Made by a program: the position numbers and the translations under genes. A model generated the notes under the pieces. That model was given only the letters and a program-made list of their open reading frames with translations, searched no databases and had not been told where the DNA came from. Shown here in pieces: positions 4,158 through 32,375 of a stretch of 42,909 nucleotides of DNA. This DNA is from Myroides sp. (GTDB lineage: Bacteria > Bacteroidota > Bacteroidia > Flavobacteriales > Flavobacteriaceae), in NCBI GenBank assembly GCA_018384465.1, contig JAHAYQ010000125.1, positions 1 through 42,909 of the forward strand. Reading direction: 5' to 3'. Each line of letters opens with the position of its first letter. Within the stretch, counting starts at the first letter, position 1.

Positions 4158-4217
4158 TATTTTAAATTTTAATGTTCGGGCGTGAATTTAAAGATGCTAA
4201 AGAGTGATTATGATAAT

Positions 4218-4252
4218 GTGGCAGCCGATGGCGGTGAGTGGCTGACTTTGGC
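4218..4252 (-). promoter_or_regulatory. 4xGCC 10-bp-phased operator upstream of mobC
   Basis: Minus strand GCCAAAGTCA GCCACTCACC GCCATCGGCT GCCAC, then 27 bp to TAAATTCA (4190-4183). Confidence 0.65.
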
Positions 4253-4259
4253 TTTTCAG

Positions 4260-5549
4260 TTACTTTTGCCCCCTTTTGTATTTCCGTTTTTTCTTCATCC
4301 TATTAGCGAAATCCAATTCCTCGTAATCTTCGCCCTGCGCTTCGGGCAATAATCCACCCAACGCCTCAATCAAACCATCTTCGTGTTTATCGGTATTTAA
4401 GAAGTCAAATAATTGATGAGGTTTTTCCGAAGATAAATTATCTTCATCGTTGGAATGTGATACTTTTTGTTGAGGTTGACTAGGCTCTTTAATCTCCGGT
4501 TTGATATTATTGTTCCAAAAATCATTAAAAGTATTCGCAGAAAGCTCCTTCCCCAAACGCGAACCATTCCAAACCGTTTTAGAATTGTGGTCAATAAAAG
4601 TCATTCCGTAAATACGACCAGTATCATTTCTACGCACCACAACATTAATGCCTTGTTCGCCTAATTGTTTTTTAAAGGTTTGTTCATCACTTGTAGATTG
4701 CAGGGCCATAGTAACAGCTGATTTTACAGTCTGTTTAGTTGGAAAGTTTTTTAAGTTTTCTTTCGATTTTTCAAAATGTAATTCCAATGCCGAAATTCCT
4801 GCATCTTTTCCGAATAAGGAAGCTTTAAAAGGATGACTTACTTTTTCCCCTTTATCGTTCAATGCGAAATACAATAATCCTTGTTGGAATTTACCTTGTA
4901 GTTCGCCTTCCACTTTATCTGTCGTAATATGGAACAAGGATAACAAAGCATTGTATTCACCTAAAGTTTGGAACTGATAATACTTAGGCAAATGCCGAAT
5001 AACCGAAGCAATCTGACTTTTTATATCGCCAGTTTGATAATCCACAGGACGAAAGATTTTGTCGTTCTGTTGTCGCTCCTTATCTGTTGCTGGGATTAAA
5101 TCGTGTTTTCTTTCGAGTTCACGACACACATTCATAGACCGTCTTTTTTCAAATTTATCTGAAATCTTTTTACCCTCTTCATCCACGCAAACCGATACGA
5201 TATGAATATGACTGCGATCAATATCGGTATGCTTAAAGACTACAAATGGTTGTTCACCGTACCCCATTTCACGCATATATTCTTCCGCCATTTCCCTAAA
5301 CTTATCATCATCTACATTATCCTTGGGATCAGGATTGAGCGAAATATGCAACGTATGTTTCTCGGTATTGCGGTTGGCGATGAGATAAGGAGCAAAAGAT
5401 TGGGCTAATTGTGCTACGGAATAATGTCCGTTAGCAGTTTCAATCATCTTATTGGCGAACAAAATTTGTCCATTTTCGTTCTCCACTTTCAAATTGTTAT
5501 ATGCCAATGCTCCGTATAGATTTTCGCTTCTTCCGATTTTTGCAATCAT
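4260..5549 (-). CDS. mobB: Relaxase (MOBP-type)
   Basis: ALAYN catalytic Tyr, HISLNP, HTDIDRSHIHIVS HUH motif. Confidence 0.95.
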   Translation of the reverse strand: MIAKIGRSENLYGALAYNNLKVENENGQILFANKMIETANGHYSVAQLAQSFAPYLIANRNTEKHTLHISLNPDPKDNVDDDKFREMAEEYMREMGYGEQPFVVFKHTDIDRSHIHIVSVCVDEEGKKISDKFEKRRSMNVCRELERKHDLIPATDKERQQNDKIFRPVDYQTGDIKSQIASVIRHLPKYYQFQTLGEYNALLSLFHITTDKVEGELQGKFQQGLLYFALNDKGEKVSHPFKASLFGKDAGISALELHFEKSKENLKNFPTKQTVKSAVTMALQSTSDEQTFKKQLGEQGINVVVRRNDTGRIYGMTFIDHNSKTVWNGSRLGKELSANTFNDFWNNNIKPEIKEPSQPQQKVSHSNDEDNLSSEKPHQLFDFLNTDKHEDGLIEALGGLLPEAQGEDYEELDFANRMKKKRKYKRGQK

Positions 5550-5557
5550 TTCTGCTG

Positions 5558-5992
5558 TTATTTTTTCAGATATTTCACATCAAATTCTTCCGTTATCCGG
5601 ACAATTTCTTTAAACAAGGCGGTCATTTCAGCCGTATGTTTTTCCAATTTATAAAGATATGCTGCTGCCTTTTTCTCCGAAAAGTTCTTATACAATAGCT
5701 TCACAACCTGATTATAATTCACGCCAATAGATCGAAATTGACTGTGAAACGAAGTCAATCGCATATAAAAATCAATTGTTCCTTTGTCTATTTTAATCGA
5801 TTTCATCGTCTTATCGAAGATACAAGACGTTATAAAATGTGCCTTAACCTGCATACCCGACTTTTCAAATAAGTCAAGAAAACGGGCATGCTCTTCCTCA
5901 TTAAAGGAAATCGTGTACCGGATTTTAGCGGGGTCGTTTTTAAGAGGACGGCCTCCCTTTTTTAACTGCTTTCTGCTGTTTTCATTCATCAC
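5558..5992 (-). CDS. mobA: Relaxosome accessory (RHH) protein
   Basis: GGRP start, IGVNYNQVVK motif, directly upstream of relaxase. Confidence 0.9.
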   Translation of the reverse strand: MMNENSRKQLKKGGRPLKNDPAKIRYTISFNEEEHARFLDLFEKSGMQVKAHFITSCIFDKTMKSIKIDKGTIDFYMRLTSFHSQFRSIGVNYNQVVKLLYKNFSEKKAAAYLYKLEKHTAEMTALFKEIVRITEEFDVKYLKK

Positions 5993-6053
5993 TAATCCAT
6001 TTATAATTTACACAAAACCCTGACTTCGGAAGGTGTTTTTCAGCTCCCAGCAG

Positions 6054-6150
6054 GGCAAGTTGTTTTGAGCATCGGAAATCTTTTCGAGATGCTCAAAACA
6101 CAACTTGCCGTGTTCTGGTGAACACAAAAATCCGCCCTTCGGGACGGATT
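6054..6150. other. Probable oriT (inverted-repeat cluster)
   Basis: IR GGCAAGTTG-TTTTGAGCATC...GATGCTCAAAACACAACTTGCC (6054-6109) plus hairpins at 6110-6125 and 6129-6150, between divergent mobA and traA. Confidence 0.75.
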
Positions 6151-6287
6151 AAATGTAGCAGGGAAAAACGGTTTGATGCCGTTCTGCTTTTGTCCATTTC
6201 CTCAAGATGCCTTTGCATAAATCTGTTAATAAAATTCTATATACAAAGTAAGATACTACTTATGAGAGCATCACAATCAGACACATA

Positions 6288-6357
6288 GCCAAACACTGCC
6301 TTTGGGTGCCAAAGACTACCACACATCAATAACGAGCCGATTCAATCGCTTTATTTG
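6288..6357 (+). promoter_or_regulatory. 4xGCC operator and -7 element upstream of traA
   Basis: GCCAAACACT GCCTTTGGGT GCCAAAGACT ACCAC, 27 bp, TTTATTTG. Confidence 0.65.
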
Positions 6358-6662
6358 CCGTATAGTTTTAGTGCAGGTAATAAAAATTGTAATGAGGATA
6401 AAAAATAAATTGGGTTTTAGTACAGAAATTTTGGAATAAAAGCATAGGGTTTTAAAAACATAAAAGCGGTAAAGCAATTTACAAGTTGTAAGGTTTTCCA
6501 GTTGCTAAAAATGATTACCCACCAAGCAGTAATAAAAGAAAATAACAATCAAGAAAATTTCCAAAAAGGGAATACAGGCATATAGGAAATAGGTACTATT
6601 TAAATAAACCAATATTCAAACCTGCCAAATAAATAAAATATGTAACAATAAATCTTTAAATA

Positions 6663-7430
6663 ATGGAAACAAAAAAGAAAACTTTAAAAATCAGTTTTTC
6701 AACGCCTAAAGGGGGTGTTGGAAAATCTACTATGACCGCATTACTTTCAAGTGTATTGCATTATCGTTTAGGTTTTAATGTCCTTGTAATGGATTGTGAT
6801 TTCCCACAACACAGCTTAGCCAATATGAGGGAAAGGGATTTGAAAACTATTATGCAGAATGATTACCATAAAAGAGCTGCAATGAAGTTGTATCAAAGTA
6901 TCAATAAAAAAGCATATCCGATTATCAGTTGTAAACCGGAGGATGCCTTGTCAAAGGCTTTAGAATACGTAAATCAATCTGCAATAGAGCCTGATATAAC
7001 TTTTTTTGACCTTCCCGGAACAGCTAATACAAAAGGTGTGCTCAGTACCTTAAGAACAATGGATTTTATTTTTTCTCCAATTAGTGCTGACCGTCTAGTT
7101 ATGGAAAGTACACTGAGCTTTACTAAAGCATTCCTTGGCTTGCCTGAAACGGAGGAGAGTAACGAAGATCAGAAAATGTGGATGTTTTGGAATCAGGTAG
7201 ATGGTCGAGAGAAAACAGGAATATACGAGGCTTATCAAAGCGTTATTAACGAACTAGATTTATCTGTGATGAATTCTCGGATAATGGATAGTAAACGTTT
7301 CAGAAAAGAGACGGACGATACACCGAACAGTGTATTTCGGTCAAGTCTGTTACCTGCCGAACCTCAACTAATGAAAGTAACGAGACTGGATTTATTTATT
7401 GAAGAATTTTTAAAAATTGTTAATCTCTAA
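6663..7430 (+). CDS. traA: ParA-family ATPase TraA
   Basis: Deviant Walker A KGGVGKST, DCDFPQHS, FFDLPGT; first gene of tra cluster. Confidence 0.9.
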   Translation: METKKKTLKISFSTPKGGVGKSTMTALLSSVLHYRLGFNVLVMDCDFPQHSLANMRERDLKTIMQNDYHKRAAMKLYQSINKKAYPIISCKPEDALSKALEYVNQSAIEPDITFFDLPGTANTKGVLSTLRTMDFIFSPISADRLVMESTLSFTKAFLGLPETEESNEDQKMWMFWNQVDGREKTGIYEAYQSVINELDLSVMNSRIMDSKRFRKETDDTPNSVFRSSLLPAEPQLMKVTRLDLFIEEFLKIVNL

Positions 7431-7441
7431 AATAGTTAAGT

Positions 7442-7846
7442 ATGTCAACAGATAAGAGAAGAAAAGATTTCGATAAGCCCGATGTTGATGAAGAATTAAT
7501 CATGAATATCATGAGTGGTAATCAATCTGTTACTATACCCGAAGTTATTCAACAACAGGAAATACAGAAGGAAACAAAACCAAAAGAAAAAGCCCGCAAT
7601 AGTTCCTTAAAGAAAGTGGATTATGAGGAGACATTTCTGGTCAATCGTTTTCCTTCAGGTCGAAACGGAAAGGTCGTTTACATTCGTCCGGAATATCACG
7701 AAAGGTTGTTACGTATAGTACAATTAACAAGAGAAGAAAAGACTACACTCTATTCTTATATCGACAACATTCTTGAGCACCATTTTAGGGAGTTTGGAGA
7801 CGATGTTACAAATTATTTCAACGAACGTTTTAAACCAATTTTATAA
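7442..7846 (+). CDS. traB: DUF3408 conjugative transposon protein (TraB-like)
   Basis: YEETFL...KVVYIRPEYHERL...SYIDNILEHHF. Confidence 0.8.
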   Translation: MSTDKRRKDFDKPDVDEELIMNIMSGNQSVTIPEVIQQQEIQKETKPKEKARNSSLKKVDYEETFLVNRFPSGRNGKVVYIRPEYHERLLRIVQLTREEKTTLYSYIDNILEHHFREFGDDVTNYFNERFKPIL

Positions 7847-8118
7847 TGAAAAAAGCAAAGAAAAAACCGAAAAAAGTTTTACGGACAACCGAATACAAAA
7901 CGACATTTCTTACGCCAACAGATTTTTTGGCTCGGAACGGAAAAACAGTGTATATCAACAAAGAATTTCATCACAAACTTACCCAACTTGTATTTATGGT
8001 CGGTGGTGGTAAGCTGACACTTTCAGATTACTTACACAATCTGCTCCAACAGCATTTTGATGATTTCGGGGCTGAAATGAGAGAAGTTTATAACAATTTG
8101 GACAGACCAATTCTTTGA
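7846..8118 (+). CDS. traC: DUF3408 conjugative transposon protein (TraC-like)
   Basis: Paralogous to previous gene (YKTTFL...KTVYI...DYLHNLLQQHF; both end PIL). Confidence 0.75.
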   Translation: MKKAKKKPKKVLRTTEYKTTFLTPTDFLARNGKTVYINKEFHHKLTQLVFMVGGGKLTLSDYLHNLLQQHFDDFGAEMREVYNNLDRPIL

Positions 8119-8120
8119 TC

Positions 8121-8756
8121 ATGGAAATTGTAATAGTAATATGCCTGCTGATAGTTATTGTCCTGCTTTTGCAGGATAAGATTATCATTAAGAAAAGGTC
8201 AAAACAAAAACCTCCGCAGAAGAAAGTCAATCCAGATCTGCCCGATATTATGGGGCAGCCCAAGCCCGTAGAACGCCATTTAGTGCCAAATAGAGCCAAT
8301 GAAAGCCATATAGTGGAACCAGAGGTAAATACCAATAATTTAGACATTGAATACGACGAAAATGAAAACAGGAGTATTCAAATTCCGCAGGAAGAGCTGG
8401 ATGAAGTTTTTAGCAATCAACCTGATTTTGAAGAAGAGGAAGAAGAATGGAACAGGTACGGAATATCCGGTGGCGATAATGGTTTTGCCCAAGGGGTTAC
8501 CTTTGAAGAACTAAGCTCCGTGGGGATGTTGCTTCAGCAAGAAAAACTGGAGTCATCTCAAAAGGAAACAGCGATAGCAATTGTTCAGAAAATACAGGGA
8601 ACCGAATTATTTAGTCTGCTGGAAAATTCTATAGGGAGTGCATCCAGTAAAATTGCCAAGCTATTGGATAGCTCACTCTCATCTGAAACAGAAACCAGTT
8701 CTTCCACTTTGCGGAACAATGATTTAGATGATTTTGATATTGGGGAGTTTGTATAG
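8121..8756 (+). CDS. traD: Conjugal transfer protein TraD-like
   Basis: N-terminal TM segment, DIMG, acidic region, AQGVTFEEL, C-terminal FDIGEFV; ATG at 8121 preferred over TTG at 8115. Confidence 0.75.
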   Translation: MEIVIVICLLIVIVLLLQDKIIIKKRSKQKPPQKKVNPDLPDIMGQPKPVERHLVPNRANESHIVEPEVNTNNLDIEYDENENRSIQIPQEELDEVFSNQPDFEEEEEEWNRYGISGGDNGFAQGVTFEELSSVGMLLQQEKLESSQKETAIAIVQKIQGTELFSLLENSIGSASSKIAKLLDSSLSSETETSSSTLRNNDLDDFDIGEFV

Positions 8757-9409: not shown

Positions 9410-9479
9410 GCCACCCACAGCCAAACAATTCCTCTCACTGCCACTTTGTTAGAACGCTTTGATTTCTGAAACACCTTTG
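9410..9479 (+). promoter_or_regulatory. 4xGCC operator and -7 element upstream of traE
   Basis: GCCACCCACA GCCAAACAAT TCCTCTCACT GCCAC, 27 bp, CACCTTTG. Confidence 0.65.
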
Positions 9480-9532: not shown

Positions 9533-9838
9533 ATGAAAAAACAAAGAAAAAAAGTTTTGATGGCAGTCGTTGCAATGCTATCAGGAATGGGTGCATTCGC
9601 ACAAGGAAACGGTACAGCAGGTATTACCGAAGCTACCCAAATGGTCACCTCTTATTTCGATCCTGCAACTCAATTAATTTATGCCATCGGTGCCGTTGTT
9701 GGGCTAATTGGAGGTGTTAAGGTGTACAACAAATTTAGTTCGGGCGACCCAGACACAAGTAAAACGGCAGCAAGCTGGTTTGGTGCCTGTATCTTCCTGA
9801 TCGTAGCGGCTACCATCCTCCGTTCATTCTTCCTGTAA
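9533..9838 (+). CDS. traE: TraE (DUF4134, VirB2-like pilin)
   Basis: AQGNGTAGITEATQMVTSYFDP...WFGACIFLIV. Confidence 0.92.
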   Translation: MKKQRKKVLMAVVAMLSGMGAFAQGNGTAGITEATQMVTSYFDPATQLIYAIGAVVGLIGGVKVYNKFSSGDPDTSKTAASWFGACIFLIVAATILRSFFL

Positions 9839-9849
9839 TCCTTTGTCCT

Positions 9850-10182
9850 ATGAGTATTTATAACATCAATAAAGGGATTGGAAGAACAGTAGAGTTTAAA
9901 GGACTGAAAGCCCAATATCTGTTCATTTTCTCAGGTGGATTGCTTGGTACACTCATCTTCGTGATGATATTGTATATGGCTGGTGTCAATTCCTACATCT
10001 GCTTGTTTCTGGGAGCAAGTGGTGCATCACTGATCATCTGGCAAACCTTTTCATTGAACAGGAAATACGGCGAACACGGATTAATGAAAGTGGGCGCAAG
10101 AAAAAGGCATCCTCGCTACATCATCTGTCGCAAGCCGGTACACCGCTATTTAAAATTCACTCCTAAATCAAATGCCGTATGA
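9850..10182 (+). CDS. traF: TraF (DUF4133, VirB3-like)
   Basis: YNINKGIGRTVEFKGLKAQYL...KYGEHGLMK. Confidence 0.92.
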   Translation: MSIYNINKGIGRTVEFKGLKAQYLFIFSGGLLGTLIFVMILYMAGVNSYICLFLGASGASLIIWQTFSLNRKYGEHGLMKVGARKRHPRYIICRKPVHRYLKFTPKSNAV

Positions 10183-12683
10183 GAAATGTATCAAAAACGA
10201 CCACATTGGAAAATAAATTTCCTTTACTGGCTGTAGAAAACAATTGCATTCTTTCCAAAGATGCAGACATTACTGCCTGTTTTGAAGTGCGTTTACCTGA
10301 ACTGTTCACGGTAGCTTCTGCGGAATATGAAGCGATTCATTCCGCTTGGCATAAAGCAATCAAAACCTTGCCAGATTTTACGGTTATCCACAAACAGGAT
10401 TGGTACATCAAAGAGAACTACGCACCTGATTTGGCAAAGGAAGATCAAAGTTTTTTGGCTAAATCCTATCAACGCCATTTCAACGAGCGACCGTTTCTAA
10501 ATCATTATTGCTATCTGTTCCTGACCAAAACCACCAAAGATCGGATGCGGATGCAAAGTAACTTTTCTTCGCTTTGCAAAGGTACGCTGATACCAAAGGA
10601 AATCAGGGATAAGGAAGCCATCCACCATTTTATGGAAACCGTGGCGCAGTTTGAGCGTATTGTGAACGATAGCGGTTTTGTAAGCCTAAAACGTCTGAGC
10701 GAAGATGACATTATCGGCACGGATGAAAAACAGGGTTTGTTAGAACAATACCTTACGCTTTCCAGAGAAACTGGTACACCGATGCAGGACATTGCGCTTG
10801 GGGCTGAAGAAGTCCGTATCGGAAACAAAAGATTGAGCTTGCACACCTTGTCCGATACAGATGACTTGCCTACAGCGGTTTCAGCAGATACTCGTTTTGA
10901 GAAACTATCGACCGATCGAAGTGACTGCCGTTTATCGTTTGCTGCACCTGTGGGATTGCTGTTAAGCTGTAATCATATTTACAACCAATATTTATTTTTG
11001 GATAACAGCGAAGCTAATCTGCAAAAGTTTGAGAAGTCTGCACGGAATATGCACTCACTGGCTCGGTACAGTCGTGCCAATCAAATCAACAAAGAATGGA
11101 TCGAAAAGTATCTGAACGAAGCACATTCGTTTGGACTTTCTTCTATTCGGGCGCATTTCAACATTATGGCTTGGTCGGAAGATCCAGCAGAGCTTAAACA
11201 ATTAAAAAATGATTGTGGTAGTGCATTAGCATTAATGGAATGCAAACCCCGTCATAATACCACCGACGTAGCTACGCTATACTGGGCAGGAATGCCGGGC
11301 AATGCTGCTGATTTTCCAAGTGAGGAAAGTTTTTACACGTTCATTGAGCCTGCTTTGTGTTTGTTTACCGAAGAAACCAATTACCATAATTCGCCCTCGC
11401 CATTTGGTATCAAGATGGCGGATCGTTTAACTGGAAAGCCTATCCATTTGGACATTTCGGATTTACCAATGAAACGTGGGATTATCACCAATCGGAACAA
11501 ATTTATATTGGGTCCTTCAGGTTCAGGAAAATCGTTCTTCACTAACCACATGGTACGTCAATATTATGAGCAAGGTGCACACGTGTTACTTGTGGATACA
11601 GGAAATTCTTATCAAGGATTGTGCGAGTTGATTAAAGGAAAAACCAAAGGCGAAGACGGCGTGTATTTCACCTACACCGAAGATAATCCGATTGCTTTTA
11701 ATCCTTTCTACACCGATGATGGTGTATTCGATATTGAGAAAAGGGAAAGTGTCAAAACGCTCATCTTGACTTTATGGAAGCGTGATGATGAACCACCAAC
11801 TCGTTCGGAAGAAGTAGCATTGTCCAATGCTGTAAGTGGTTACATCGACCGTATTAAACAGCACAGCGAATTTCCTTCTTTCAATGGGTTTTATGAATAT
11901 GTAAAAGGAGATTACCGCAAAGTATTGGAAGAAAAACAAGTTCGTGAGAAAGACTTTGACATTGCCAATTTCCTTAACGTACTCGAACCTTATTACAAAG
12001 GAGGCGAATATGATTACTTATTGAACTCCAATAAGCAACTCGACCTGCTTTCCAAACGCTTTATTGTTTTCGAAATTGATGCGATAAAGGATCACAAAAT
12101 TTTATTTCCCATTGTGACCATCATCATTATGGAGGTTTTTATCAACAAGATGCGCAGGCTCAAAGGTATCCGAAAACTCATCCTGATCGAAGAAGCTTGG
12201 AAAGCTATTGCCAAAGAAGGTATGGCGGAATACATAAAATATTTGTTTAAAACCGTTAGGAAGTTCTTTGGTGAAGCCATTGTGGTAACTCAAGAAGTGG
12301 ATGACATCATCCAATCGCCCATCGTCAAAGAAAGTATCATCAACAATTCCGACTGTAAAATCCTGCTCGATCAGCGCAAGTACATGAACAAGTTTGATGA
12401 GATACAAGCCATGCTGGGGCTAACCGACAAAGAAAAAGCACAAGTCCTTTCCATCAATATGAACAACGATCCTTCTCGACTTTACAAAGAAGTATGGATT
12501 GGGTTGGGCGGTACACACTCTGCGGTATATGCCACAGAAGTTAGTCTGGAGGAATATTTTGCCTACACCACCGAAGAAACCGAAAAAATGGAAGTGATGC
12601 AGCTAGCCTCTGAACTGGGCGGTAACGTAGAACTCGCCATTAAACGTATCGCCATGCAAAGGCGAGAGAAATCAAATCAATAA
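10179..12683 (+). CDS. traG: TraG conjugation ATPase (VirB4-like)
   Basis: Walker A GPSGSGKS, IEEAWKAI, 834 aa. Confidence 0.96.
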   Translation: MRNVSKTTTLENKFPLLAVENNCILSKDADITACFEVRLPELFTVASAEYEAIHSAWHKAIKTLPDFTVIHKQDWYIKENYAPDLAKEDQSFLAKSYQRHFNERPFLNHYCYLFLTKTTKDRMRMQSNFSSLCKGTLIPKEIRDKEAIHHFMETVAQFERIVNDSGFVSLKRLSEDDIIGTDEKQGLLEQYLTLSRETGTPMQDIALGAEEVRIGNKRLSLHTLSDTDDLPTAVSADTRFEKLSTDRSDCRLSFAAPVGLLLSCNHIYNQYLFLDNSEANLQKFEKSARNMHSLARYSRANQINKEWIEKYLNEAHSFGLSSIRAHFNIMAWSEDPAELKQLKNDCGSALALMECKPRHNTTDVATLYWAGMPGNAADFPSEESFYTFIEPALCLFTEETNYHNSPSPFGIKMADRLTGKPIHLDISDLPMKRGIITNRNKFILGPSGSGKSFFTNHMVRQYYEQGAHVLLVDTGNSYQGLCELIKGKTKGEDGVYFTYTEDNPIAFNPFYTDDGVFDIEKRESVKTLILTLWKRDDEPPTRSEEVALSNAVSGYIDRIKQHSEFPSFNGFYEYVKGDYRKVLEEKQVREKDFDIANFLNVLEPYYKGGEYDYLLNSNKQLDLLSKRFIVFEIDAIKDHKILFPIVTIIIMEVFINKMRRLKGIRKLILIEEAWKAIAKEGMAEYIKYLFKTVRKFFGEAIVVTQEVDDIIQSPIVKESIINNSDCKILLDQRKYMNKFDEIQAMLGLTDKEKAQVLSINMNNDPSRLYKEVWIGLGGTHSAVYATEVSLEEYFAYTTEETEKMEVMQLASELGGNVELAIKRIAMQRREKSNQ

Positions 12684-12703
12684 CAGTTTAAAAATTATCA
12701 AAA

Positions 12704-13336
12704 ATGAAAAAAATCATGTATTTGGTGTGTACGGCACTTATGCTTGCCGTAGCACCATCAGCGAAAGCGCAATTTGTAGTTACCGATCCAGTAAATTTGG
12801 CATCGGGTATCCTGAACAGCGCCAATGAAATCATACAGACTTCATCCACGGTATCCAATGTCGTTAAAAACTTCAAAGAGGTGGAAAAGATGTACAACCA
12901 GGGTAAAGAATATTACGACAAACTACAGGCGGTAAACAATCTGGTGAAAGACGCCCGTAAGGTGCAGCAGACCGTATTACTTGTCGGTGATGTGTCCGAA
13001 ATGTACGTTCAGAATTTCGGTAAGATGATGAATGACCCAAACTTTTCTGCACAGGAATTGGCTGCGATTGCTAACGGTTATTCGGCATTGCTGAATGAAA
13101 GTACGGAGTTACTGAAAGAACTCAAACAGATCGTAAGCTCATCTAGCCTATCGCTAAATGATAAAGAGCGTATGGATATTATTGATAAAGTGTATAACGA
13201 AGTAAAAGAATACCACAGTCTGGTACGCTACTACACCAATAAGAATATCTCCGTCAGCATTCTAAGAGCAAAGAAACAGAACAATACCCAAAGGGTACTT
13301 GAGCTGTACGGCACTTCCAATCAAAAATACTGGTAG
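12704..13336 (+). CDS. traI: TraI (DUF4141)
   Basis: Signal peptide, AQFVVTDP motif, position between traG and traJ. Confidence 0.85.
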   Translation: MKKIMYLVCTALMLAVAPSAKAQFVVTDPVNLASGILNSANEIIQTSSTVSNVVKNFKEVEKMYNQGKEYYDKLQAVNNLVKDARKVQQTVLLVGDVSEMYVQNFGKMMNDPNFSAQELAAIANGYSALLNESTELLKELKQIVSSSSLSLNDKERMDIIDKVYNEVKEYHSLVRYYTNKNISVSILRAKKQNNTQRVLELYGTSNQKYW

Positions 13337-13338
13337 TT

Positions 13339-14334
13339 ATGGAATTTCAAAATCTTCACGAAGTACTACGTTCCCTGTATGACGAGATGATGCCACTGTC
13401 CGCCGATATGGCGGCAGTGGCTAAAGGAGTCGCAGGATTGGGTGCTTTGTTCTATGTCGCCATCAAAGTATGGCAGGCACTCAGTCGAGCAGAACCAATC
13501 GACATGTACCCGTTACTTCGCCCGTTTGCTTTGGGACTTTGCATCATGTTTTTTCCAACCATGGTTTTGGGAACCATCAATGCGGTATTAAGCCCTGTGG
13601 TACAAGGTACGCACGCTATTCTCGAAAATCAGGTGCTTGATCTAAATGATTTGCAGGTAAAAAAAGACTTATTGGAACGAGAAGCGATGTTGCGAGATCC
13701 CGAAACTGCTTATTTGGTGAGTGATGAAGTGTTTGATAAAAAACTCGAAGAATTGGGTTGGTCGCCTTCCGATTTGGTTACGATGTCGGGCATGTACCTA
13801 GAACGTGGTATGTACAGTATGGAAAAAAGTGTCAAGGATTGGTTTCGCAATTTGTTAGAAATATTGTTTCAAGCGGCTGCATTAGTCGTTGACACCATAC
13901 GAACGTTTTTTTTGATTGTACTATCCATACTCGGTCCCATCGCTTTTGCAATATCGGTATGGGATGGTTTTCAATCGACACTCACGCAATGGCTCACCCG
14001 ATACATCAGTGTTTATTTATGGTTGCCAGTCGCTGATCTGTTCAGCGCGATGCTTGCCAAGATACAATCCCTCATCATCGAAAAAGATATTGAGATGCTT
14101 GCCGATCCGACTTTCATTCCCGACACCTCAAATACGGTTTACGTCATTTTTATGATTATCGGCATCGTGGGATACTTTACCATTCCGACGGTAACAGGTT
14201 GGGTTATCCAAGCCGGAGGTGCAGGAAACTTTACCCGCAACGTAAATCAAGCGGCTATGAAAGCAGGAAATGTCGCAAGTGCGGGCGCAGGTTCAGCTGC
14301 TGGCAACATTGGAGGTCAGCTTCTAAAAAAATAA
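13339..14334 (+). CDS. traJ: TraJ (VirB6-like membrane protein)
   Basis: LHEVLRSLYDEMMPL, AEPIDMYPLLRPF, multiple TM segments. Confidence 0.93.
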   Translation: MEFQNLHEVLRSLYDEMMPLSADMAAVAKGVAGLGALFYVAIKVWQALSRAEPIDMYPLLRPFALGLCIMFFPTMVLGTINAVLSPVVQGTHAILENQVLDLNDLQVKKDLLEREAMLRDPETAYLVSDEVFDKKLEELGWSPSDLVTMSGMYLERGMYSMEKSVKDWFRNLLEILFQAAALVVDTIRTFFLIVLSILGPIAFAISVWDGFQSTLTQWLTRYISVYLWLPVADLFSAMLAKIQSLIIEKDIEMLADPTFIPDTSNTVYVIFMIIGIVGYFTIPTVTGWVIQAGGAGNFTRNVNQAAMKAGNVASAGAGSAAGNIGGQLLKK

Positions 14335-14360
14335 GGTATAACAACTAATCATTCAAGAAA

Positions 14361-14984
14361 ATGGAATTTAAAACATTAAGAAATATTGAAAACAGTTTTC
14401 GCCAAATCAGGCTGTACGCCCTTGTATTTGCCGTACTCTGCATAAGTGTTGTAGGATTTTCCGTGTGGAAATCCTACCGCTTTGCGGAGCAACAGCGAGA
14501 AAAAGTATATGTCTTGGACAATGGAAAATCATTGATGTTGGCTTTAGCACAAGATGCAAGTATCAACCGACCTGTGGAAGCAAGGGAACACGTCAAGCGC
14601 TTTCACGAACTCTTTTTCACTTTAGCACCCGATAAAAATGCCATTGAAAGCAACATGAAACGAGCTTTCAACCTTGCGGACAAATCGGCATTTGACTATT
14701 ACAAAGACCTTTCGGAAAAAGGGTATTACAGCCGTATCATATCCGGAAACGTACAGCAACGCATCGAAGTGGATAGTGTGGTTTGCAATTTTGATACCTA
14801 TCCGTATTCGGTACGTGCCTACGCCAAACAATTCATTATCCGTTCGAGCAATGTAACCAGACGAAACCTGATTACTTCCTGCTATCTAGTCAACTCCGTC
14901 CGTTCCGACAACAATCCACAGGGGTTCAATATCGAAAAATTTGCGGTGCTTGAAAACAAGGATATCGAAGTGATTGAACGCTAA
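14361..14984 (+). CDS. traK: TraK (VirB8-like)
   Basis: MEFKTLRNIENSF...RSDNNPQGF. Confidence 0.94.
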   Translation: MEFKTLRNIENSFRQIRLYALVFAVLCISVVGFSVWKSYRFAEQQREKVYVLDNGKSLMLALAQDASINRPVEAREHVKRFHELFFTLAPDKNAIESNMKRAFNLADKSAFDYYKDLSEKGYYSRIISGNVQQRIEVDSVVCNFDTYPYSVRAYAKQFIIRSSNVTRRNLITSCYLVNSVRSDNNPQGFNIEKFAVLENKDIEVIER

Positions 14985-14994
14985 AATTTCGGGT

Positions 14995-15282
14995 ATGAAA
15001 AAATTAAGAGCAAATATGGACAGGTATTTTGACAAGCTGGACAATCGTTGGCGGAGGTTACCGCTACGCAAACAGTACCAATACACCTTGTATTTCTTCA
15101 CGGCGTATTTACTGCTTACCGTAGGTGTCGTTTTCAAAGTATGGTACGATACAGCAAAATCCCGTAACGATATGCACATCCAGCATATCGAAAACCCTAT
15201 TCTCAAGAAGAACGAAAGCCCTGCAAGATTGCAGGACACCTTAACAACAATTTTTAAAAACAAGTTATATGAAAGAAAATGA
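14995..15282 (+). CDS. traL: TraL-position small membrane protein
   Basis: Single TM, QHIENP motif, between traK and traM; ATG at 14995 preferred. Confidence 0.7.
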   Translation: MKKLRANMDRYFDKLDNRWRRLPLRKQYQYTLYFFTAYLLLTVGVVFKVWYDTAKSRNDMHIQHIENPILKKNESPARLQDTLTTIFKNKLYERK

Positions 15283-16606
15283 GAACAAAAAGTCGGTTGT
15301 TCGGGTAACCGAGGGGAATCCGAAAGATATCGCCGATGTACTGCAAGACAGTACACAGAACAAAATGGACAAACTTAAAAAACCGCTCATCTTTGGTTTA
15401 ATGAGTGTGGTTTTCTTGGGTTGTATGTACCTCATATTTAAACCATCCAAAGGTTTGAAGGAAATCGAAAACATTGGTTTGAACGATGCTGTCCCCCAAG
15501 CAACGGGTGCAGGAATGCCTGCTGACAAAGGCAAAGCGTACGAATTAGAAATGTTGGAACGTAAAGATCAGGAAAAGCGTAATGCTTTAACTACGCTTTC
15601 GGATTATTGGAGTACCGAAGACAAGGACGAGTCGATTGACGAATTTTCCGACGAAGACGAAAGCTACGATTATGGCGGTGGTGGCAGAAATTCAGGAAGA
15701 GCTGGCAATCCTGCATTAAGTAGTTACCGAAATATGCAAAGTACACTGGGTTCTTTTTATCAAGATGACAACTCGGAAACGATGGAACTCCGTAAACAAG
15801 TGGACGAATTAAAAGAGCAATTAGCGGAAAAAGATGTACCACTTGTTCCAACATTAGATGACCAGCTTTCCCTCATGGAGAAATCCTACCAAATGGCAGC
15901 GAAGTATTTGCCAACCGGAACAAATTCGACGGAAGTTACCCCTGCTAAAAGTATTGCTCCAGTGACAACGGGTTCAACACAAAAAGAACAATTTGTATCC
16001 TTTACCTCATCAAGAAAGAACACCGTTTCAGCTTTGTATCGTGAGCCTACAGACAGTGCTTTTCTAGCCGATTGGAACGAAACCAGAAATCGAGGTTTCT
16101 ATACCGCTGGTTCAACCCAGCAAATCGTACAACCAAAAAACAGCATCAAAGCCTGCGTACACGATGAACAGACGGTTGTTGGTGAAACAGGCGTTCGTTT
16201 GCGTTTACTGGAAGCTGCACAAACACCTAATCGCACCATTCCAAAAGGAACAATCGTAACCGCTAATGCCAAATTTCAAACAGGCCGGTTACAGCTAAAA
16301 ATTACTTCCATAGAATTGGAAGGCAACATCATTCCAGTGGATATCACCATTTACGATCTGGATGGACAGCAAGGTTTGTACGTACCGTATTCACCAGAAA
16401 TGAATGCGCTGACCGAAATGGCAGGTAATATGAGCCAGAATACGGGAACAAGCGTAATGCTTACGCAATCGGCAGGACAGCAAGTAGCCGCTGATTTGAG
16501 CCGTGGCGTGGTACAGGGGATTTCGGGCTATTTCGCCAAAAAAGTAAAAACACCAAAAGTGACCCTAAAAGCAGGACATCAAGTATTCCTGGTTACTAAA
16601 AAATAA
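15269..16606 (+). CDS. traM: TraM (VirB10-like)
   Basis: N-terminal TM, MEKSYQMAAKY, RLRLLE, YDLDGQQGLYVP. Confidence 0.94.
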   Translation: MKENENKKSVVRVTEGNPKDIADVLQDSTQNKMDKLKKPLIFGLMSVVFLGCMYLIFKPSKGLKEIENIGLNDAVPQATGAGMPADKGKAYELEMLERKDQEKRNALTTLSDYWSTEDKDESIDEFSDEDESYDYGGGGRNSGRAGNPALSSYRNMQSTLGSFYQDDNSETMELRKQVDELKEQLAEKDVPLVPTLDDQLSLMEKSYQMAAKYLPTGTNSTEVTPAKSIAPVTTGSTQKEQFVSFTSSRKNTVSALYREPTDSAFLADWNETRNRGFYTAGSTQQIVQPKNSIKACVHDEQTVVGETGVRLRLLEAAQTPNRTIPKGTIVTANAKFQTGRLQLKITSIELEGNIIPVDITIYDLDGQQGLYVPYSPEMNALTEMAGNMSQNTGTSVMLTQSAGQQVAADLSRGVVQGISGYFAKKVKTPKVTLKAGHQVFLVTKK

Positions 16607-16611
16607 TGTTC

Positions 16612-16698
16612 AACATAAAAATTTAAAAACGATGAAACCTGTTCCGTGCAACGGAACACGCTTCATCACAATTAACAATAAAATTAAAAACGATGAAA
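16612..16698 (+). repeat. Direct repeat of the traN translation-start region flanking a hairpin
   Basis: AAAWTTAAAAACGATGAAA twice, 61 bp apart; between them GATGAA-ACC-TGTTCCGT-GCA-ACGGAACA-CGC-TTCATC. Confidence 0.75.
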
Positions 16699-17586
16699 AA
16701 TCATTTAAAAACCTTTTGGGCAATCACCCTGATGATTGGCTTTGCCCTACCTTCTTTTGCACAGGACAACATAAGAACTCCACTTGCTTTGGGCAAGATA
16801 GAACCTTATCAAATGGAAGTTACCTACGATAAAACTTCGCATCTGATTTTCCCAACTGCCATTCGTTACGTCGATTTAGGAAGTGAATACCTCATCGCTG
16901 GAAAAGCAGAAGATGCCGAAAATGTGTTGCGTGTGAAAGCATCGGTTAGGGATTTTGAATCCGAAACCAATTTTTCGGTCATTACCAATGACGGACGTTT
17001 TTACAGTTTCAATGTGTATTACAGTGGGTATCCCAATGTGTTGAGCTATGATCTTTTGACCATGCAAAAGGCAGTGGACAAAACCAACGGAAACGATGTG
17101 CTTTTTGAAGAGTTAGGCAACAATTCGCCATCACTCGCAGGATTGTTATTAGAAACGATCTATAAAAACAACAAGCGCATTGTAAAACATATCGGGGCGA
17201 AAAGTTTCGGTATTCAGTTTATCCTGAAAGGAATCTACATCCACAACGGCAAATATTATTTCCATACGGAAGTAAAAAACCGTACCAACGTGCCTTTTCA
17301 GATTGATTTTATCAATTTCAAAGTAGTAGACAAAAAGATAGCTAAACGTACCGTGGTACAGGAACGTCCGATGATACCACTGAGAACTTATAAACCATTG
17401 GACGGTATTAATGGTAAATCGGCCGAACAAAACGTGTTTCTTTTAGACCAATTTACCATTGCTGATGACAAGGTGCTGCTGATTGAAATTTTCGAGAAAA
17501 ACGGTGGCAGACATCAAACGCTTCAGGTCGAAAATTCAGATTTAATCAAAGCTCGTTTGATTGACGATATGCACCTGAAATTTTAA
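16693..17586 (+). CDS. traN: TraN (VirB9-like, DUF4138)
   Basis: KTSHLIFPTAIRYVDLGS, EKNGGRH. Confidence 0.94.
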   Translation: MKNHLKTFWAITLMIGFALPSFAQDNIRTPLALGKIEPYQMEVTYDKTSHLIFPTAIRYVDLGSEYLIAGKAEDAENVLRVKASVRDFESETNFSVITNDGRFYSFNVYYSGYPNVLSYDLLTMQKAVDKTNGNDVLFEELGNNSPSLAGLLLETIYKNNKRIVKHIGAKSFGIQFILKGIYIHNGKYYFHTEVKNRTNVPFQIDFINFKVVDKKIAKRTVVQERPMIPLRTYKPLDGINGKSAEQNVFLLDQFTIADDKVLLIEIFEKNGGRHQTLQVENSDLIKARLIDDMHLKF

Positions 17587-17606
17587 TAACCTTTTAAATT
17601 ATAACG

Positions 17607-18167: not shown

Positions 18168-18176
18168 AATGTAAAA

Positions 18177-19114: not shown

Positions 19115-19184
19115 GCCAAATACCGCCTTTCAAAGCCATCGGCTACAACATTTCAGAATGTCTTAAAATACCTTTATAAATTTA
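19115..19184 (+). promoter_or_regulatory. 4xGCC operator and -7 element upstream of the HTH pair
   Basis: GCCAAATACC GCCTTTCAAA GCCATCGGCT ACAAC, 27 bp, TAAATTTA. Confidence 0.62.
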
Positions 19185-19209: not shown

Positions 19210-19521
19210 ATGGAAGTGATTGCAATTCAGAAGTCCGCATTGGATGAAATGAAGAATGAGCTAAGGAAACTTTTGGAATTGACCGAAAATGCCTCAAGGA
19301 AATATACCCCAATTTTCAAAGAAGAGAAATGGTTGGATAACCAGGAAGTGTGTTTGATGATGAACATTACCAAACGGACATTACAGACTTATAAAGACAA
19401 AGGCTTATTGCCTTATTCCAAATTGAATCGTAAGAATTATTATAAACGCTCGGACGTACAAGTTTTGCTCGAAGCTGGTCAACCGTACAATACAAACAAC
19501 AATGGATTTACTGACAAATGA
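19210..19521 (+). CDS. Excisionase-like HTH_17 DNA-binding protein (Xis2c-like)
   Basis: WLDNQEVCLMMNITKRTLQTYKDKGLLPYS. Confidence 0.9.
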   Translation: MEVIAIQKSALDEMKNELRKLLELTENASRKYTPIFKEEKWLDNQEVCLMMNITKRTLQTYKDKGLLPYSKLNRKNYYKRSDVQVLLEAGQPYNTNNNGFTDK

Positions 19522-19801
19522 AGCGGAAGAAATCATCTCTCATCAGGAGTTGATCATGCAGTTAAAAAATCGTATCGAAGAAATATTGAACAACTACCGT
19601 CCTGTAATGAAAGGAGAAATATACCTATCTGGCGAAGATGTATGCGAACTGCTCCATATCAGCAAACGAACTTTACAGCAATACAGAGATGATAAAATCC
19701 TACCGTATATACAAATAGGGGGAAAGATCATCTACAAGGAAAGTGATATTCTGACAGTCTTGGAGCAGAACTACATATCCAATAATACCGACCATATATA
19801 A
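19502..19801 (+). CDS. Excisionase-like HTH_17 DNA-binding protein (Xis2d-like)
   Basis: YLSGEDVCELLHISKRTLQQYRDDKILPYIQIGGKIIY. Confidence 0.9.
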   Translation: MDLLTNEAEEIISHQELIMQLKNRIEEILNNYRPVMKGEIYLSGEDVCELLHISKRTLQQYRDDKILPYIQIGGKIIYKESDILTVLEQNYISNNTDHI

Positions 19802-23054: not shown

Positions 23055-23060
23055 TATTCT

Positions 23061-29181: not shown

Positions 29182-29202
29182 TGTAATTTTATTTATTCGT
29201 TA

Positions 29203-29304
29203 CTATATAATATTGTCCTGTTCGAAATTCCGCACCTTTTCTTCGGCTTCCTGTATCGTTCTTCGGATATTCGCCAGTCTTTCAGGTGTAAAAGGCTTGA
29301 CCAT
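29203..29304 (-). CDS. Candidate 33-aa small protein (not in ORF track)
   Basis: MVKPFTPERLANIRRTIQEAEEKVRNFEQDNII fills the only large gap in the operon; tandem TAG TAA stops. Confidence 0.45.
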   Translation of the reverse strand: MVKPFTPERLANIRRTIQEAEEKVRNFEQDNII

Positions 29305-29316
29305 AGCCACATTGAT

Positions 29317-29721: not shown

Positions 29722-29737
29722 GATAATTGATTTTAAT

Positions 29738-29763
29738 GGCTACCACCGATTAAGGCGGTAGCC
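29738..29763 (-). terminator. Hairpin after DUF932 gene (weak terminator or mRNA-stability element)
   Basis: GGCTACCACC-GATTAA-GGCGGTAGCC; no clean T-run. Confidence 0.45.
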
Positions 29764-29772
29764 TGTGGTTAT

Positions 29773-30846: not shown

Positions 30847-30891
30847 AATGCTAAAAATTTTGATGTTTGAAAAATGATTAAATACTCGTTG

Positions 30892-31284
30892 TTAGAATGG
30901 GAGGTCGTCTTCTGTTTCCAATGCTGTAACCTTGATACTTTTCGATTGTGTAGAAGCTTGTGTAGTTTCTGCTCGCTTACTACCTCCGTGCAGTTTGATT
31001 TGCGAGGTATGGAAATTCAGTCCTGCTCTTAATTCTCCGTCATTACCTACCCACGCTCTTGTACTTACTCTGCCCGATAGTTCTACCAAAGTGCCTTTTG
31101 TGAGTAGTGTGGCTACCTTAGCAGAAATCCAATAAGAGCAGTCGAAATAGGTGGTTTGCTCAATGCGTTCGCCCTGCTTGTTTTTGTAGCTGTCGTTGGT
31201 CGCTACTGAAAAATTTACTACTTGTTTGTCCTGTGACGTGGTGCGTACTTCCGCATCTCTTGTCAGTCTTCCGATGATGTTCAT
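30892..31284 (-). CDS. ssb: Single-stranded DNA-binding protein
   Basis: IIGRLTRDAE, FSVATN, KGTLVELSGR, C-terminal DDLPF; ATG at 31284. Confidence 0.93.
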   Translation of the reverse strand: MNIIGRLTRDAEVRTTSQDKQVVNFSVATNDSYKNKQGERIEQTTYFDCSYWISAKVATLLTKGTLVELSGRVSTRAWVGNDGELRAGLNFHTSQIKLHGGSKRAETTQASTQSKSIKVTALETEDDLPF

Positions 31285-31416
31285 GATTTCTACTTTTTTA
31301 CGTTTTTGAATTTGTCCCGATTTGATTTTTTTAAAATTTATTCGGAAATGAGAGGTGGTGCTGAAGTTTCGTTTCACTTTTTCACCATTTTCAATGTTTA
31401 TTTTTCCCATTTCTGA

Positions 31417-31645
31417 CATTTTTTTTATTCGTTTAAAGAGCCGGAGTATGCTTTGTTTCGTTTCACGAGCATAAAAGGTTCGTGTTTAGCAGCAACAAGG
31501 TTTTGGCAAAAAAATACGACCCGAATGGGTGGAGATTATTTTGCAAACCCGAAGGGCATGACCTTTTTGCTGTGTTAAGAACACGGAAATACCTTTGCTC
31601 TTGAAATGGGACAAAACAGCATACTGGCTCTTGAATAAAAAAATG
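31417..31645 (+). promoter_or_regulatory. Long imperfect fold-back, candidate single-stranded (Frpo-like) promoter for ssb operon
   Basis: ~85-nt complementary arms; right arm holds TTTG-N20-TACCTTTG (31566-31597). Confidence 0.7.
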
Positions 31646-31903
31646 AAGTGGAAGTAATGAAAATGACGTTACACAAATGGTCTATGTGATTACAAAGTCT
31701 GCTCACTTGCTTGACCGTATTTTTTTCTTGTGTAAATAAGTGGCTTGGAGAGCCACAGAAAGGGTATTGAAGAAAATATTGAAGTGGGTACTGAGAGGTG
31801 TTTTCTCAATATCCTTGACCAAGGATCCGATCAAAGCTCTTTTATGTGCGGTGGGATTAGCAAAGGATAAATAAATGTGCTTTGGGGATAAAAAATAAGG
31901 TGT

Positions 31904-31932
31904 AAAAAAAGCAGGATCGTCAAATCCTGCTT
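31904..31932 (-). terminator. Terminator after xis
   Basis: AAGCAGGAT...ATCCTGCTT with T7 on minus strand. Confidence 0.8.
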
Positions 31933-31953
31933 AATTCATCTTTTCTTAATCGT

Positions 31954-32235
31954 TTAACTGCCATCAACTCCTTCCAGCAATTTCCGAATATCTTCGTAAC
32001 GATAGTACATCAATCCACCAATTTTAGTGTAGGGTAATGTTCCATTTAGCCGAAGGTTTTGAAGTGTGCCAGCTGAGATTCCTAATAATTTGCGCACCTC
32101 ATAGCTTTTTAACCATTCCTTTGGTTCCTGTCCCGATTTTCTCATATAAGGTGAATATCTTCTAATTTCTTCAAAAAGTTCTTTTTTAAAACTTTCAAGA
32201 TCCTCTCGGGTAATAAGTTCTACTCTCATTTGCAA
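31954..32235 (-). CDS. Excisionase-like HTH_17 protein
   Basis: WLKSYEVRKLLGISAGTLQNLRLNGTLPYTKIGG; next to integrase. Confidence 0.9.
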   Translation of the reverse strand: MQMRVELITREDLESFKKELFEEIRRYSPYMRKSGQEPKEWLKSYEVRKLLGISAGTLQNLRLNGTLPYTKIGGLMYYRYEDIRKLLEGVDGS

Positions 32236-32305
32236 TTCCTTTAAATATTAATAATTTCATGAGGGGCAGAACAGCCTTCTGTTATCAATTCTGCCACTAT
32301 GAATA

Positions 32306-32375
32306 CAAATGAACTGAAAGTAACCAAAGACTTAAACAAACTGGTATCCAATGGCACCATTTGGCTGCGAAAGGC
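32306..32375 (-). promoter_or_regulatory. 4xGCC operator and -7 element upstream of xis
   Basis: Minus strand GCCTTTCGCA GCCAAATGGT GCCATTGGAT ACCAG, 27 bp, TTCATTTG. Confidence 0.65.

What the first reader, a model, noticed from the sequence alone, without database searches (positions are those of the whole stretch)
4183..32375. ICE-wide regulon: four GCC units at 10-bp period, exactly 27 bp before the -7 box, at five promoters
Seen: 35-bp sites upstream of mobC (4252-4218, minus), traA (6288-6322), traE (9410-9444), the HTH pair (19115-19149) and xis (32375-32341, minus). All read GCC-N7-GCC-N7-GCC-N7-(G/A)CCAC with few mismatches. Each is followed after exactly 27 bp by a degenerate TAnnTTTG (TAAATTCA, TTTATTTG, CACCTTTG, TAAATTTA, TTCATTTG). 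One-helical-turn phasing and invariant spacing imply an oligomeric activator that rescues weak promoters and co-induces excision, coupling protein and mating pore. Established: CTnDOT uses RteC and Xis2c/Xis2d as activators. No rteC is in this window, so the binder is either encoded further left or is one of the three HTH_17 proteins (inference).
Basis: partly seen in the sequence, partly recalled or inferred. Interest (0 to 1): 0.8.

Follow-up and report, generated by a model that had tools for sequence, protein, structure and literature searches.

The report
Shared activator site of Bacteroidota ICEs
Six predicted promoters of this mobile element carry the same four-unit DNA repeat at a fixed distance; the repeat recurs in related elements across Bacteroidota and is likely the landing strip for a small excisionase-type protein (Xis2d-like) that would switch on excision and conjugation genes together.

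Summary
In detail: five arrays of four G[C/A/T]C units at 10-bp period end 27 bp before a TAnnTTTG-like box (0 in 100 shuffles). A sixth lies inside traD (26 bp). In 3.7 Mb of related loci, 59 of 82 arrays picked without box information have the box at 26/27 bp, and the period is 10 (144 hits, at most 2 for other periods). Arrays recur at orf3-topB and DUF1896-helicase, on small mobilisable elements, and in Bacteroidales ICEs, including tetQ/CTnDOT-type traA promoters, where they sit one turn further (37 bp). The binder is probably none of the window's three HTH_17 proteins: G278 keeps arrays but lacks their orthologues. RteC is also unlikely: its target promoter carries a different, roughly palindromic site, and arrays persist when RteC is replaced by a 25%-identical type. 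The best candidate is the Xis2d-clade HTH_17 gene behind rteC on contig C89, likely this ICE's left half, binding head-to-tail like BldC. Binding, start sites and activation are untested, and one lineage keeps arrays without xis2d. Verdict: a previously undescribed operator architecture (in the papers I could search) for the known CTnDOT cascade.

The parts
4218..4252 (-). array 1 (4 units, 10-bp period) upstream of mobC, starting 8 bp after the mobB stop
   Evidence: orthologous site in 11 of 29 loci with the GCC-only model
4183..4190 (-). predicted -7 box TAAATTCA, 27 bp after array 1
2160..4157 (-). mobC, coupling protein (YWFCY + T4SS-DNA_transf); predicted target
4260..5992 (-). mobA (MobC_2) and mobB (relaxase), divergent from traA; no array of their own found
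6288..6322 (+). array 2 upstream of traA
   Evidence: 18 of 42 orthologous promoters
6350..6357 (+). predicted -7 box TTTATTTG (the same octamer at CTnDOT-type traA promoters)
6663..8756 (+). traA (ParA-like), two DUF3408 genes, traD-like gene; predicted targets
   Evidence: 25 of 28 homologues
8336..8343 (+). predicted -7 box TAATTTAG, 26 bp after array 3 (predicted internal promoter)
9410..9444 (+). array 4 upstream of traE
   Evidence: 24 of 68 loci
9472..9479 (+). predicted -7 box CACCTTTG
9533..18629 (+). traE-traQ mating-pore operon; predicted target
19115..19149 (+). array 5 upstream of the HTH_17 pair
   Evidence: 9 of 9 loci
19177..19184 (+). predicted -7 box TAAATTTA
19210..19801 (+). 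HTH_17 pair, similar (36-42%) to the pair divergent from xis2c in the CTnDOT-type element; predicted target, not the activator
32341..32375 (-). array 6 upstream of the xis-like gene
   Evidence: same site in G382 and G910
32306..32313 (-). predicted -7 box TTCATTTG
31954..32229 (-). xis-like HTH_17 gene (91 aa from the ATG); predicted target
32425..33666 (-). tyrosine integrase
33958..33972 (+). 15-bp 3' end of tRNA-Pro, duplicated at C89:645-659: predicted att core linking C89 to this ICE

Best explanation
The six arrays are a conserved four-unit, 10-bp-period site at a fixed distance from predicted -7 promoter boxes, and are likely the operator of an Xis2d-clade HTH_17 protein that would line up head-to-tail, one protomer per helical turn, and activate these promoters together. 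Inferred cascade: RteC, at its own roughly palindromic site, turns on the xis2d-like gene (here C89:18867-19172, likely the left half of this ICE). About four Xis2d protomers then coat roughly -74 to -40 (start site position inferred from the recalled Bacteroidota promoter geometry) and stand in for the missing -33 element. The predicted targets are orf3-topB, DUF1896-helicase, mobC, traA, a traD-internal promoter, traE-Q, the HTH pair and xis. Small mobilisable elements that carry the site but no xis2d would be switched on in trans. In CTnDOT-type traA promoters the good units end one turn further upstream (37 bp), and the promoter-proximal slot may be filled by Xis2c (speculative). Shown: sequence, period, spacing, conservation, gene co-occurrence. 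Inferred: binding, oligomer, activation, start sites.
For: (1) Geometry: period 10 gives 144 hits against 0-2 for periods 8, 9, 11 and 12; a -7 box lies at 26/27 bp in 59 of 82 arrays chosen without box information, at most 4 at any other offset. (2) Experimental anchor, read from review passages only: in CTnDOT, RteC activates only the excision operon, while Xis2c and Xis2d activate tra without RteC and bind upstream of it (PMC3809561; PMC5812530). In a tetQ-rteA-rteB-rteC element whose MobA and Xis2c are 100% identical in 9 of 121 genomes of one family, the traA promoter has the array, and the xis2c promoter has a 7-1-7 inverted repeat and no array. (3) The C89 and C59 HTH genes group with that element's Xis2d in a 28-row clade (SH-aLRT 96, quick tree); the window's three HTH genes fall outside it. 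(4) Five complete genomes with arrays each have the Xis2d-like gene (67-83% identical) and no close orthologue of the window pair; G278 has no other ICE-type HTH_17. (5) RteC swap: five ICEs carry an RteC only about 25% identical to the usual type, with a different predicted recognition helix and a different upstream palindrome, yet keep the same arrays; G447, G493 and G278 have no other RteC type. (6) RteC is not sufficient: 20-kb loci around rteC hold an array in 1 of 32 cases from genomes without a detected Xis2d-clade gene, against 5 of 8 with one. (7) Fold: model pLDDT 83.7; the top sequence and Foldseek hits are the BldC-smeA filament, 6AMA (E about 0.02, weak). BldC protects four tracts one turn apart (PMC5859096, section read).
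Against: One lineage (L138, L161 and one copy in L160) has excellent arrays but only an Xis2c-like gene, no xis2d in the element. L142 has xis2d but no array was found. 5 of 30 orf3 promoters scored below threshold, including the CTnDOT-type one, where orf3 is reported to be co-transcribed. RteC, unlike Xis2d, was present in every fully examined array-bearing ICE. The type-a RteC target promoter itself contains the GCCAA pentamer in inverted and 10-bp-spaced copies. The type-c RteC copies are 86-98% identical, so the swap may be recent and the arrays could be relics. G910 has arrays and RteC but no detected xis2d; its contig ends inside topB, so this is unresolved. The Xis2d profile was built partly from the genomes in which it was then found. 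From recall of its abstract (paper not held), Hopp et al. 2015 describe the Xis2d site as dyad-symmetric, not as direct repeats. No RNA reads to place start sites.
Confidence: 0.66

Rival explanations
1. RteC (winged helix) binds the arrays directly as tandem half-sites, and so activates all these promoters in one tier.
For: RteC is present in every fully examined array-bearing ICE, three copies in this genome. The type-a RteC target promoter shares the GCCAA pentamer. The review places RteC binding 50-70 nt upstream of its target promoter, similar to the inferred array position. This would explain L138 and L161, which lack xis2d.
Against: The orthologue of the known RteC target has an inverted repeat and no array. 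tra activation in CTnDOT does not need RteC. Arrays are unchanged across RteC types that are about 25% identical. 31 of 32 RteC loci in genomes without detected xis2d lack arrays.
Confidence: 0.15
2. The arrays are read by Xis2c and Xis2d interchangeably or as a mixed filament, so either paralogue can serve depending on the element.
For: CTnDOT tra needs both proteins. L138 and L161 have only the Xis2c-like gene; most Flavobacteriaceae ICEs examined have only the Xis2d-like gene, and four have both.
Against: No Xis2c-like gene was found in this genome, nor in G278, G447, G493 or G526, so here it cannot be required unless it lies in unassembled DNA (genome 74% complete). The two clades have different recognition helices.
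Confidence: 0.1
3. One of the window's own HTH_17 proteins (19210, 19502 or 31954) binds the arrays, giving positive feedback.
For: They belong to the same family. The small mobilisable elements that carry arrays mostly encode such a pair.
Against: No close orthologue of the pair in 5 of 5 complete array-bearing genomes; a xis orthologue in only 2 of 5, none in G278.
Confidence: 0.05
4. The arrays are repressor or host-factor sites, or a DNA-bending promoter element that needs no ICE protein.
For: Nothing here measures the sign of regulation. BldC represses whiI from a -50 to -80 site.
Against: Strong sites are confined to mobile elements in this genome and cluster in them in 36 genomes. Strict phasing to boxes that lack a conserved -33 element fits activation.
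Confidence: 0.04

Closest known systems
CTnDOT RteC -> Xis2c/Xis2d cascade (PMC3809561, passages and first part read; PMC5812530, passages read)
   Same: The same gene set (rteC, xis2d-like, orf3, topB/exc, mob, tra). Arrays lie at the traA promoter of a CTnDOT-type element, where Xis2c/Xis2d are reported to act 'via an unknown mechanism'.
   Different: No tetQ-rteA-rteB and no xis2c found here. The excision operon is split, and orf3-topB, mobC, traE, xis and DUF1896-helicase each have their own array. The spacer is 26/27 bp rather than 37 bp. I found no direct-repeat operator described for CTnDOT; the primary papers were not readable.
BldC-family head-to-tail binders (BldC-smeA, PMC5859096, one section and passages read)
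   Same: HTH_17-type winged helix, four repeats one turn apart; top fold and sequence hit (weak E-values).
   Different: BldC is a chromosomal developmental regulator with loose, variable sites. Here there is a sharp G[C/A/T]C unit, a fixed count of four, fixed phasing to the -7 box and an extra 28-residue N-terminal helix.
RdfS of ICEMlSym (PMC11963761, passages read)
   Same: An oligomeric excisionase-type protein that also regulates ICE promoters under an upstream activator (FseA).
   Different: The authors could not identify a consensus motif, and the targets shown are few. Here a clear motif marks about eight operons.
AcaCD / SetCD boxes of IncC plasmids and SXT/R391 ICEs (search listing only; details recalled)
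   Same: One master-activator site at many promoters, also present on mobilisable islands.
   Different: Unrelated proteins (FlhDC-like, recalled) and a single non-repeated box.
PvCTn upstream motifs (PMC11005914, passages read; figures not readable, supplement text gave no sequence)
   Same: MEME motifs upstream of five co-regulated conjugation operons in a Bacteroidota element.
   Different: Described as imperfect dyads under an XRE-type repressor. I could not test whether they are the same motif.

Membership tests
CTnDOT-type cascade | rteC upstream of an xis2d-like HTH_17 gene, followed by orf3 and topB (exc) | tested here: met
   C89 17772-22828; linkage to the window is inferred from the att duplication and synteny
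CTnDOT-type cascade | tetQ-rteA-rteB tetracycline input upstream of rteC | tested here: not met
   Neither C89 rteC has these neighbours; the gap between C89 and the window is unassembled
CTnDOT-type cascade | xis2c partner gene | tested here: not met
   tblastn of the Xis2c-like protein hits only the C89 xis2d-like gene, weakly; genome 74% complete
CTnDOT-type cascade | Xis2d binds and activates tra/mob promoters | not testable with these tools
   Needs EMSA, footprint or reporter
RteC binding site | inverted half-sites at the promoter of the excision operon (inverted-repeat nature recalled from the abstract of Park and Salyers 2011, not held) | tested here: not met
   The arrays are direct repeats; the orthologous RteC target carries a separate inverted repeat
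BldC-family head-to-tail binder | HTH_17/MerR-like winged-helix fold | tested here: met
   PF12728 match, model, top hit 6AMA
BldC-family head-to-tail binder | direct repeats one helical turn apart | tested here: met
   Period 10 only
BldC-family head-to-tail binder | cooperative head-to-tail oligomer on DNA | not testable with these tools
   No protein-DNA prediction available
Bacteroidota sigma-A promoter | -7 box TAnnTTTG | tested here: met
   At least 5 of 6 positions at spacer 26/27 in 59 of 82 arrays; consensus from a PMC9330008 passage
Bacteroidota sigma-A promoter | -33 TTTG element | tested here: not met
   No conserved column block in the spacer; TTG in the first 10 spacer bases in 2 of 6 window sites
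Bacteroidota sigma-A promoter | start site just downstream of the -7 box | not testable with these tools
   No raw RNA reads hold the region

The most novel reading that the evidence does not exclude
An excisionase-type protein acts as a sequence-specific master activator by forming a four-protomer filament that replaces the -33 element at about eight ICE operons. The same operator is the undefined Xis2c/Xis2d site of CTnDOT, where a one-turn shift creates a slot for Xis2c and makes tra a two-protein gate. Mobilisable islands across Bacteroidota copy the operator to sense a helper ICE.
Probability: 0.4. Interest if true: 0.78.

Novelty: new variant of a known kind. Interest (0 to 1): 0.62.

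Why it matters
How Xis2c/Xis2d activate CTnDOT transfer genes is called unknown in a 2017 review. This gives a base-level, testable operator and separates it from the RteC site. It predicts a wider regulon, including a promoter hidden inside traD. The site also serves as a searchable tag for mobilisable islands that may respond to these ICEs in Flavobacterium, Capnocytophaga, Pedobacter, Bacteroides and Parabacteroides. This ICE family spreads resistance and metal-tolerance genes. It would also be a clear case of a BldC/Xis-type filament used as a consensus-reading activator.

Tried and rejected
Chance: rejected. Coding constraint for the traD site: unlikely, since the units fall in three different frames and persist at 38-81% protein identity. 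Hits in RteC-less genomes G317, G256 and G263 looked like counter-examples, but most are one GC-rich hairpin followed by a T run, i.e. terminator-like, not before ICE genes. Loci L117-L123 were left out of the counts for that reason. A class-wide pattern with 2 mismatches was too noisy to score co-occurrence: 53 of 301 genomes, many single hits, and 12 hits from a 10-bp tandem repeat in G791. The strict collection scan gave only 10 loci, 7 in Bacteroidota records and 3 in other phyla. Periodic arrays with other units or periods 9/11 near RteC-only elements: 2 hits at period 9, 0 at 11, and 5 at 10, all of the known type. The palindrome score had no control, so the RteC sites were read by eye. 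The homodimer prediction gave no verdict. RNA: no raw-read run holds the region, so no reads were laid. The careful tree did not finish and the quick tree is used. Six primary CTnDOT papers were not held. Nine literature searches found no description of this operator; subscription papers, figures and bioRxiv supplements were not visible and could contain it. Three look-ups of earlier scan findings returned nothing.
Full report
Observation. The five sites are exactly as described: 35-bp arrays with 0-1 mismatches in 14 fixed positions, each followed after 27 bp by the stated octamer. Array plus spacer plus box gives 5 matches in the window and none in 100 shuffles; the array alone gives 7 hits against 0 in 20 Markov simulations. 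A sixth array lies at 8275-8309 inside the traD-like frame, 26 bp before TAATTTAG.

Setting. The window is the right part of a Bacteroidota ICE: metal cargo, mobC-mobB-mobA, traA-Q, an HTH_17 pair, arsenic and PRTRC cargo, xis-like gene, integrase, tRNA-Pro. Close TraG relatives occur in 133 of 401 genomes of the genus. RteC has three matches in this 74%-complete genome, on C89 (two) and C59. C89 carries a 15-bp copy of the tRNA-Pro 3' end and an arm-like repeat, both also found at the far end of the complete G382 element, and its right end matches DNA upstream of the window's left end in G320 and G382. C89 is therefore likely the left half of this ICE; the join is unassembled. C89 and C59 each have two more arrays, 27 bp before a box, upstream of orf3-topB and of DUF1896-helicase; these four were not used to define the motif. 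Two further loose genome hits (C197, C296) were not followed up.

Conservation and geometry. Among 80 metagenomic TraG loci (the best 80 of 594), the GCC-only model with at most 2 mismatches found the site at 24 of 68 traE, 18 of 42 traA, 11 of 29 mobC and 9 of 9 HTH-pair promoters. Almost all were in loci with TraG at least 85% identical; units are kept while spacers vary. In more distant gut elements the same architecture appears with a GACA unit, 26-27 bp before a near-perfect box, at traA, inside traD and at orf3, including named Bacteroides ovatus and Parabacteroides distasonis records. To avoid circularity I picked arrays without box information in 3.68 Mb of loci, leaving out L117-L123 as terminator-like hairpins. 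This gave 82 non-redundant arrays against 4 in reversed sequence. A box matching at least 5 of 6 positions lay at spacer 27 in 41 and 26 in 18, and at most 4 at any other offset; period 10 gave 144 hits against 0, 1, 0 and 2 for periods 8, 9, 11 and 12. The unit weights were set by hand after seeing examples. The spacer has no conserved -33 block. The traD-internal site is kept in 25 of 28 homologues and the orf3 site in 25 of 30 promoters, with 0 of 400 reversed controls reaching the threshold. In 36 genomes a pattern search gave 70 hits against 4 controls. Follow-up placed most in ICEs or in small integrase-HTH pair-mobAB elements, two of which (L124, L129) have no rteC nearby.

Which protein. 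Reviews state that in CTnDOT RteC activates the xis2c-xis2d-orf3-exc operon, while Xis2c and Xis2d activate tra without RteC, by an unknown mechanism (PMC3809561; PMC5812530; passages read, primary papers not held). I found an element with Tet(Q) above the curated cut-off, a sensor kinase, a response regulator, a 217-aa RteC and a four-gene HTH-HTH-orf3-topB operon. Its MobA and first HTH are 100% identical in 9 of 121 genomes of one family. That it is CTnDOT-type is inferred from this gene order, not from a direct comparison. Its xis2c promoter, the orthologue of the RteC target, has a 7-1-7 inverted repeat and no array (6 of 11 distinct loci show that repeat). Its traA promoter has four units ending 37 bp before the same TTTATTTG octamer as in the window, with a degenerate fifth slot; by eye, 13 of 18 distinct traA promoters share this (three short loci dropped). 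The divergent HTH-pair promoter has an array at 26 bp in 7 of 11. So the array marks the Xis2c/Xis2d-type target and not the RteC target.

The HTH gene right behind rteC on C89 and C59 groups with that element's second HTH (Xis2d) in a 28-row clade (support 96, quick tree with long branches); the window's three HTH genes lie outside it. Whole-genome HTH_17 searches of five complete array-bearing genomes found the Xis2d-like gene in 5 of 5, close orthologues of the window pair in 0 of 5 and of xis in 2 of 5. G278 has no other ICE-type HTH_17. Promoters in front of the first HTH after rteC (45 examined) carry a different site, read by eye as palindromic and varying with RteC type. Five ICEs carry an RteC type about 25% identical to the usual one, with its own palindrome, yet keep the arrays and an Xis2d 66-75% identical to C89's; three of these genomes have no other RteC type. 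RteC occurs in 41 and the Xis2d clade in 8 of the same 301 genomes. Loci around rteC hold an array in 5 of 8 cases from Xis2d-positive genomes and 1 of 32 from the others; that one (G910) ends at a contig break inside topB.

Mechanism. The Xis2d-like model (pLDDT 83.7) has a long N-terminal helix and a winged helix. Its best sequence and fold hits are the BldC-smeA filament, with weak E-values near 0.02. BldC binds four repeats one turn apart, cooperatively, and the related RdfS activates an ICE promoter. I infer a four-protomer head-to-tail filament at about -74 to -40 that substitutes for the -33 element, downstream of RteC in a two-tier cascade. The 26/27 versus 37 bp spacing differs by one turn, as a face-of-helix mechanism predicts.

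Against. One lineage (L138, L161, one copy in L160) has arrays but only an Xis2c-like gene; activation in trans or by Xis2c would have to explain it. L142 has xis2d and no array was found. RteC was present in every fully examined array-bearing ICE, and the type-a RteC target contains GCCAA in inverted and 10-bp-spaced copies, which could be RteC half-sites or Xis2d autoregulation. The RteC swap may be recent (86-98% identity within the type). The Xis2d profile was partly built from the genomes counted, and kin are not independent. From recall, the Xis2d site in CTnDOT was described as dyad-symmetric. No binding, start-site or expression data exist here.

Novelty. The regulators and the cascade are known from CTnDOT. 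The operator architecture, the wider regulon, the traD-internal site and its presence on mobilisable elements were not found in nine searches. The primary CTnDOT papers and the PvCTn motif figures (PMC11005914) could not be seen and may overlap. Verdict: real feature (about 0.97), activator operator (about 0.9), Xis2d-clade binder (0.66); new variant of a known kind; interest 0.62.

Noticed in passing
G000:C89:17772-19198 (L006:773-2199): rteC, then a promoter with CCAATTGG and a second TTGGC 10 bp on, then the xis2d-like gene whose last codons overlap the orf3 array. The reversed GCCAA pair near -33 may be an autoregulation site.
   Followed up: partly
G000:C59 (L004): A second element half with rteC, xis2d-like, orf3-topB, DUF1896 and two arrays; no matching tra region was found in the assembly.
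   Followed up: partly
L124-L127, L129, L130: Small integrase-HTH pair-DUF3408-mobAB elements carry one to four arrays; L129 has two divergent arrays and no HTH_17 or rteC found: candidates for activation in trans.
   Followed up: partly
L151, L153, L157, L158, L163, L165, L176-L178: rteC followed by an xis-like gene, with RteC-type-specific palindromes upstream and no arrays: a ready set for mapping RteC specificity.
   Followed up: partly
window 20793-24534: Arsenic-type cargo: ArsR, DUF6428, SBF (ACR3-like) transporter, FAD oxidoreductase.
   Followed up: no
window 24903-31419: PRTRC-type genes (ThiF, Prok-E2_D, PRTRC_E) with DUF932 and ssb, downstream of xis on the same strand; possibly part of the array-6 transcript.
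   Followed up: no
window 37321-42716: DUF3375, DUF4194/MksE and an SMC-like ATPase outside the ICE, resembling a Wadjet (JetABC) system (name recalled).
   Followed up: no
G000:C89:1295-17326: Four very large ORFs (690-2088 aa) just inside the left att site, probably a defence locus.
   Followed up: no
L117, L118, L120, L121, L123; G339:C12: A repeated GC-rich hairpin followed by a T run mimics the array; several copies per genome, terminator-like or a repeat family.
   Followed up: partly
plasmids NZ_MZ465529.1 and NZ_CP025402.1: An unannotated RteC-like stretch (53% over 185 aa) on Escherichia coli plasmids, suggesting captured Bacteroidota ICE DNA.
   Followed up: no
G791 (L232) and L012: Longer 10-bp GCCAA tandem runs with no recognised ICE genes nearby; unexplained.
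   Followed up: partly
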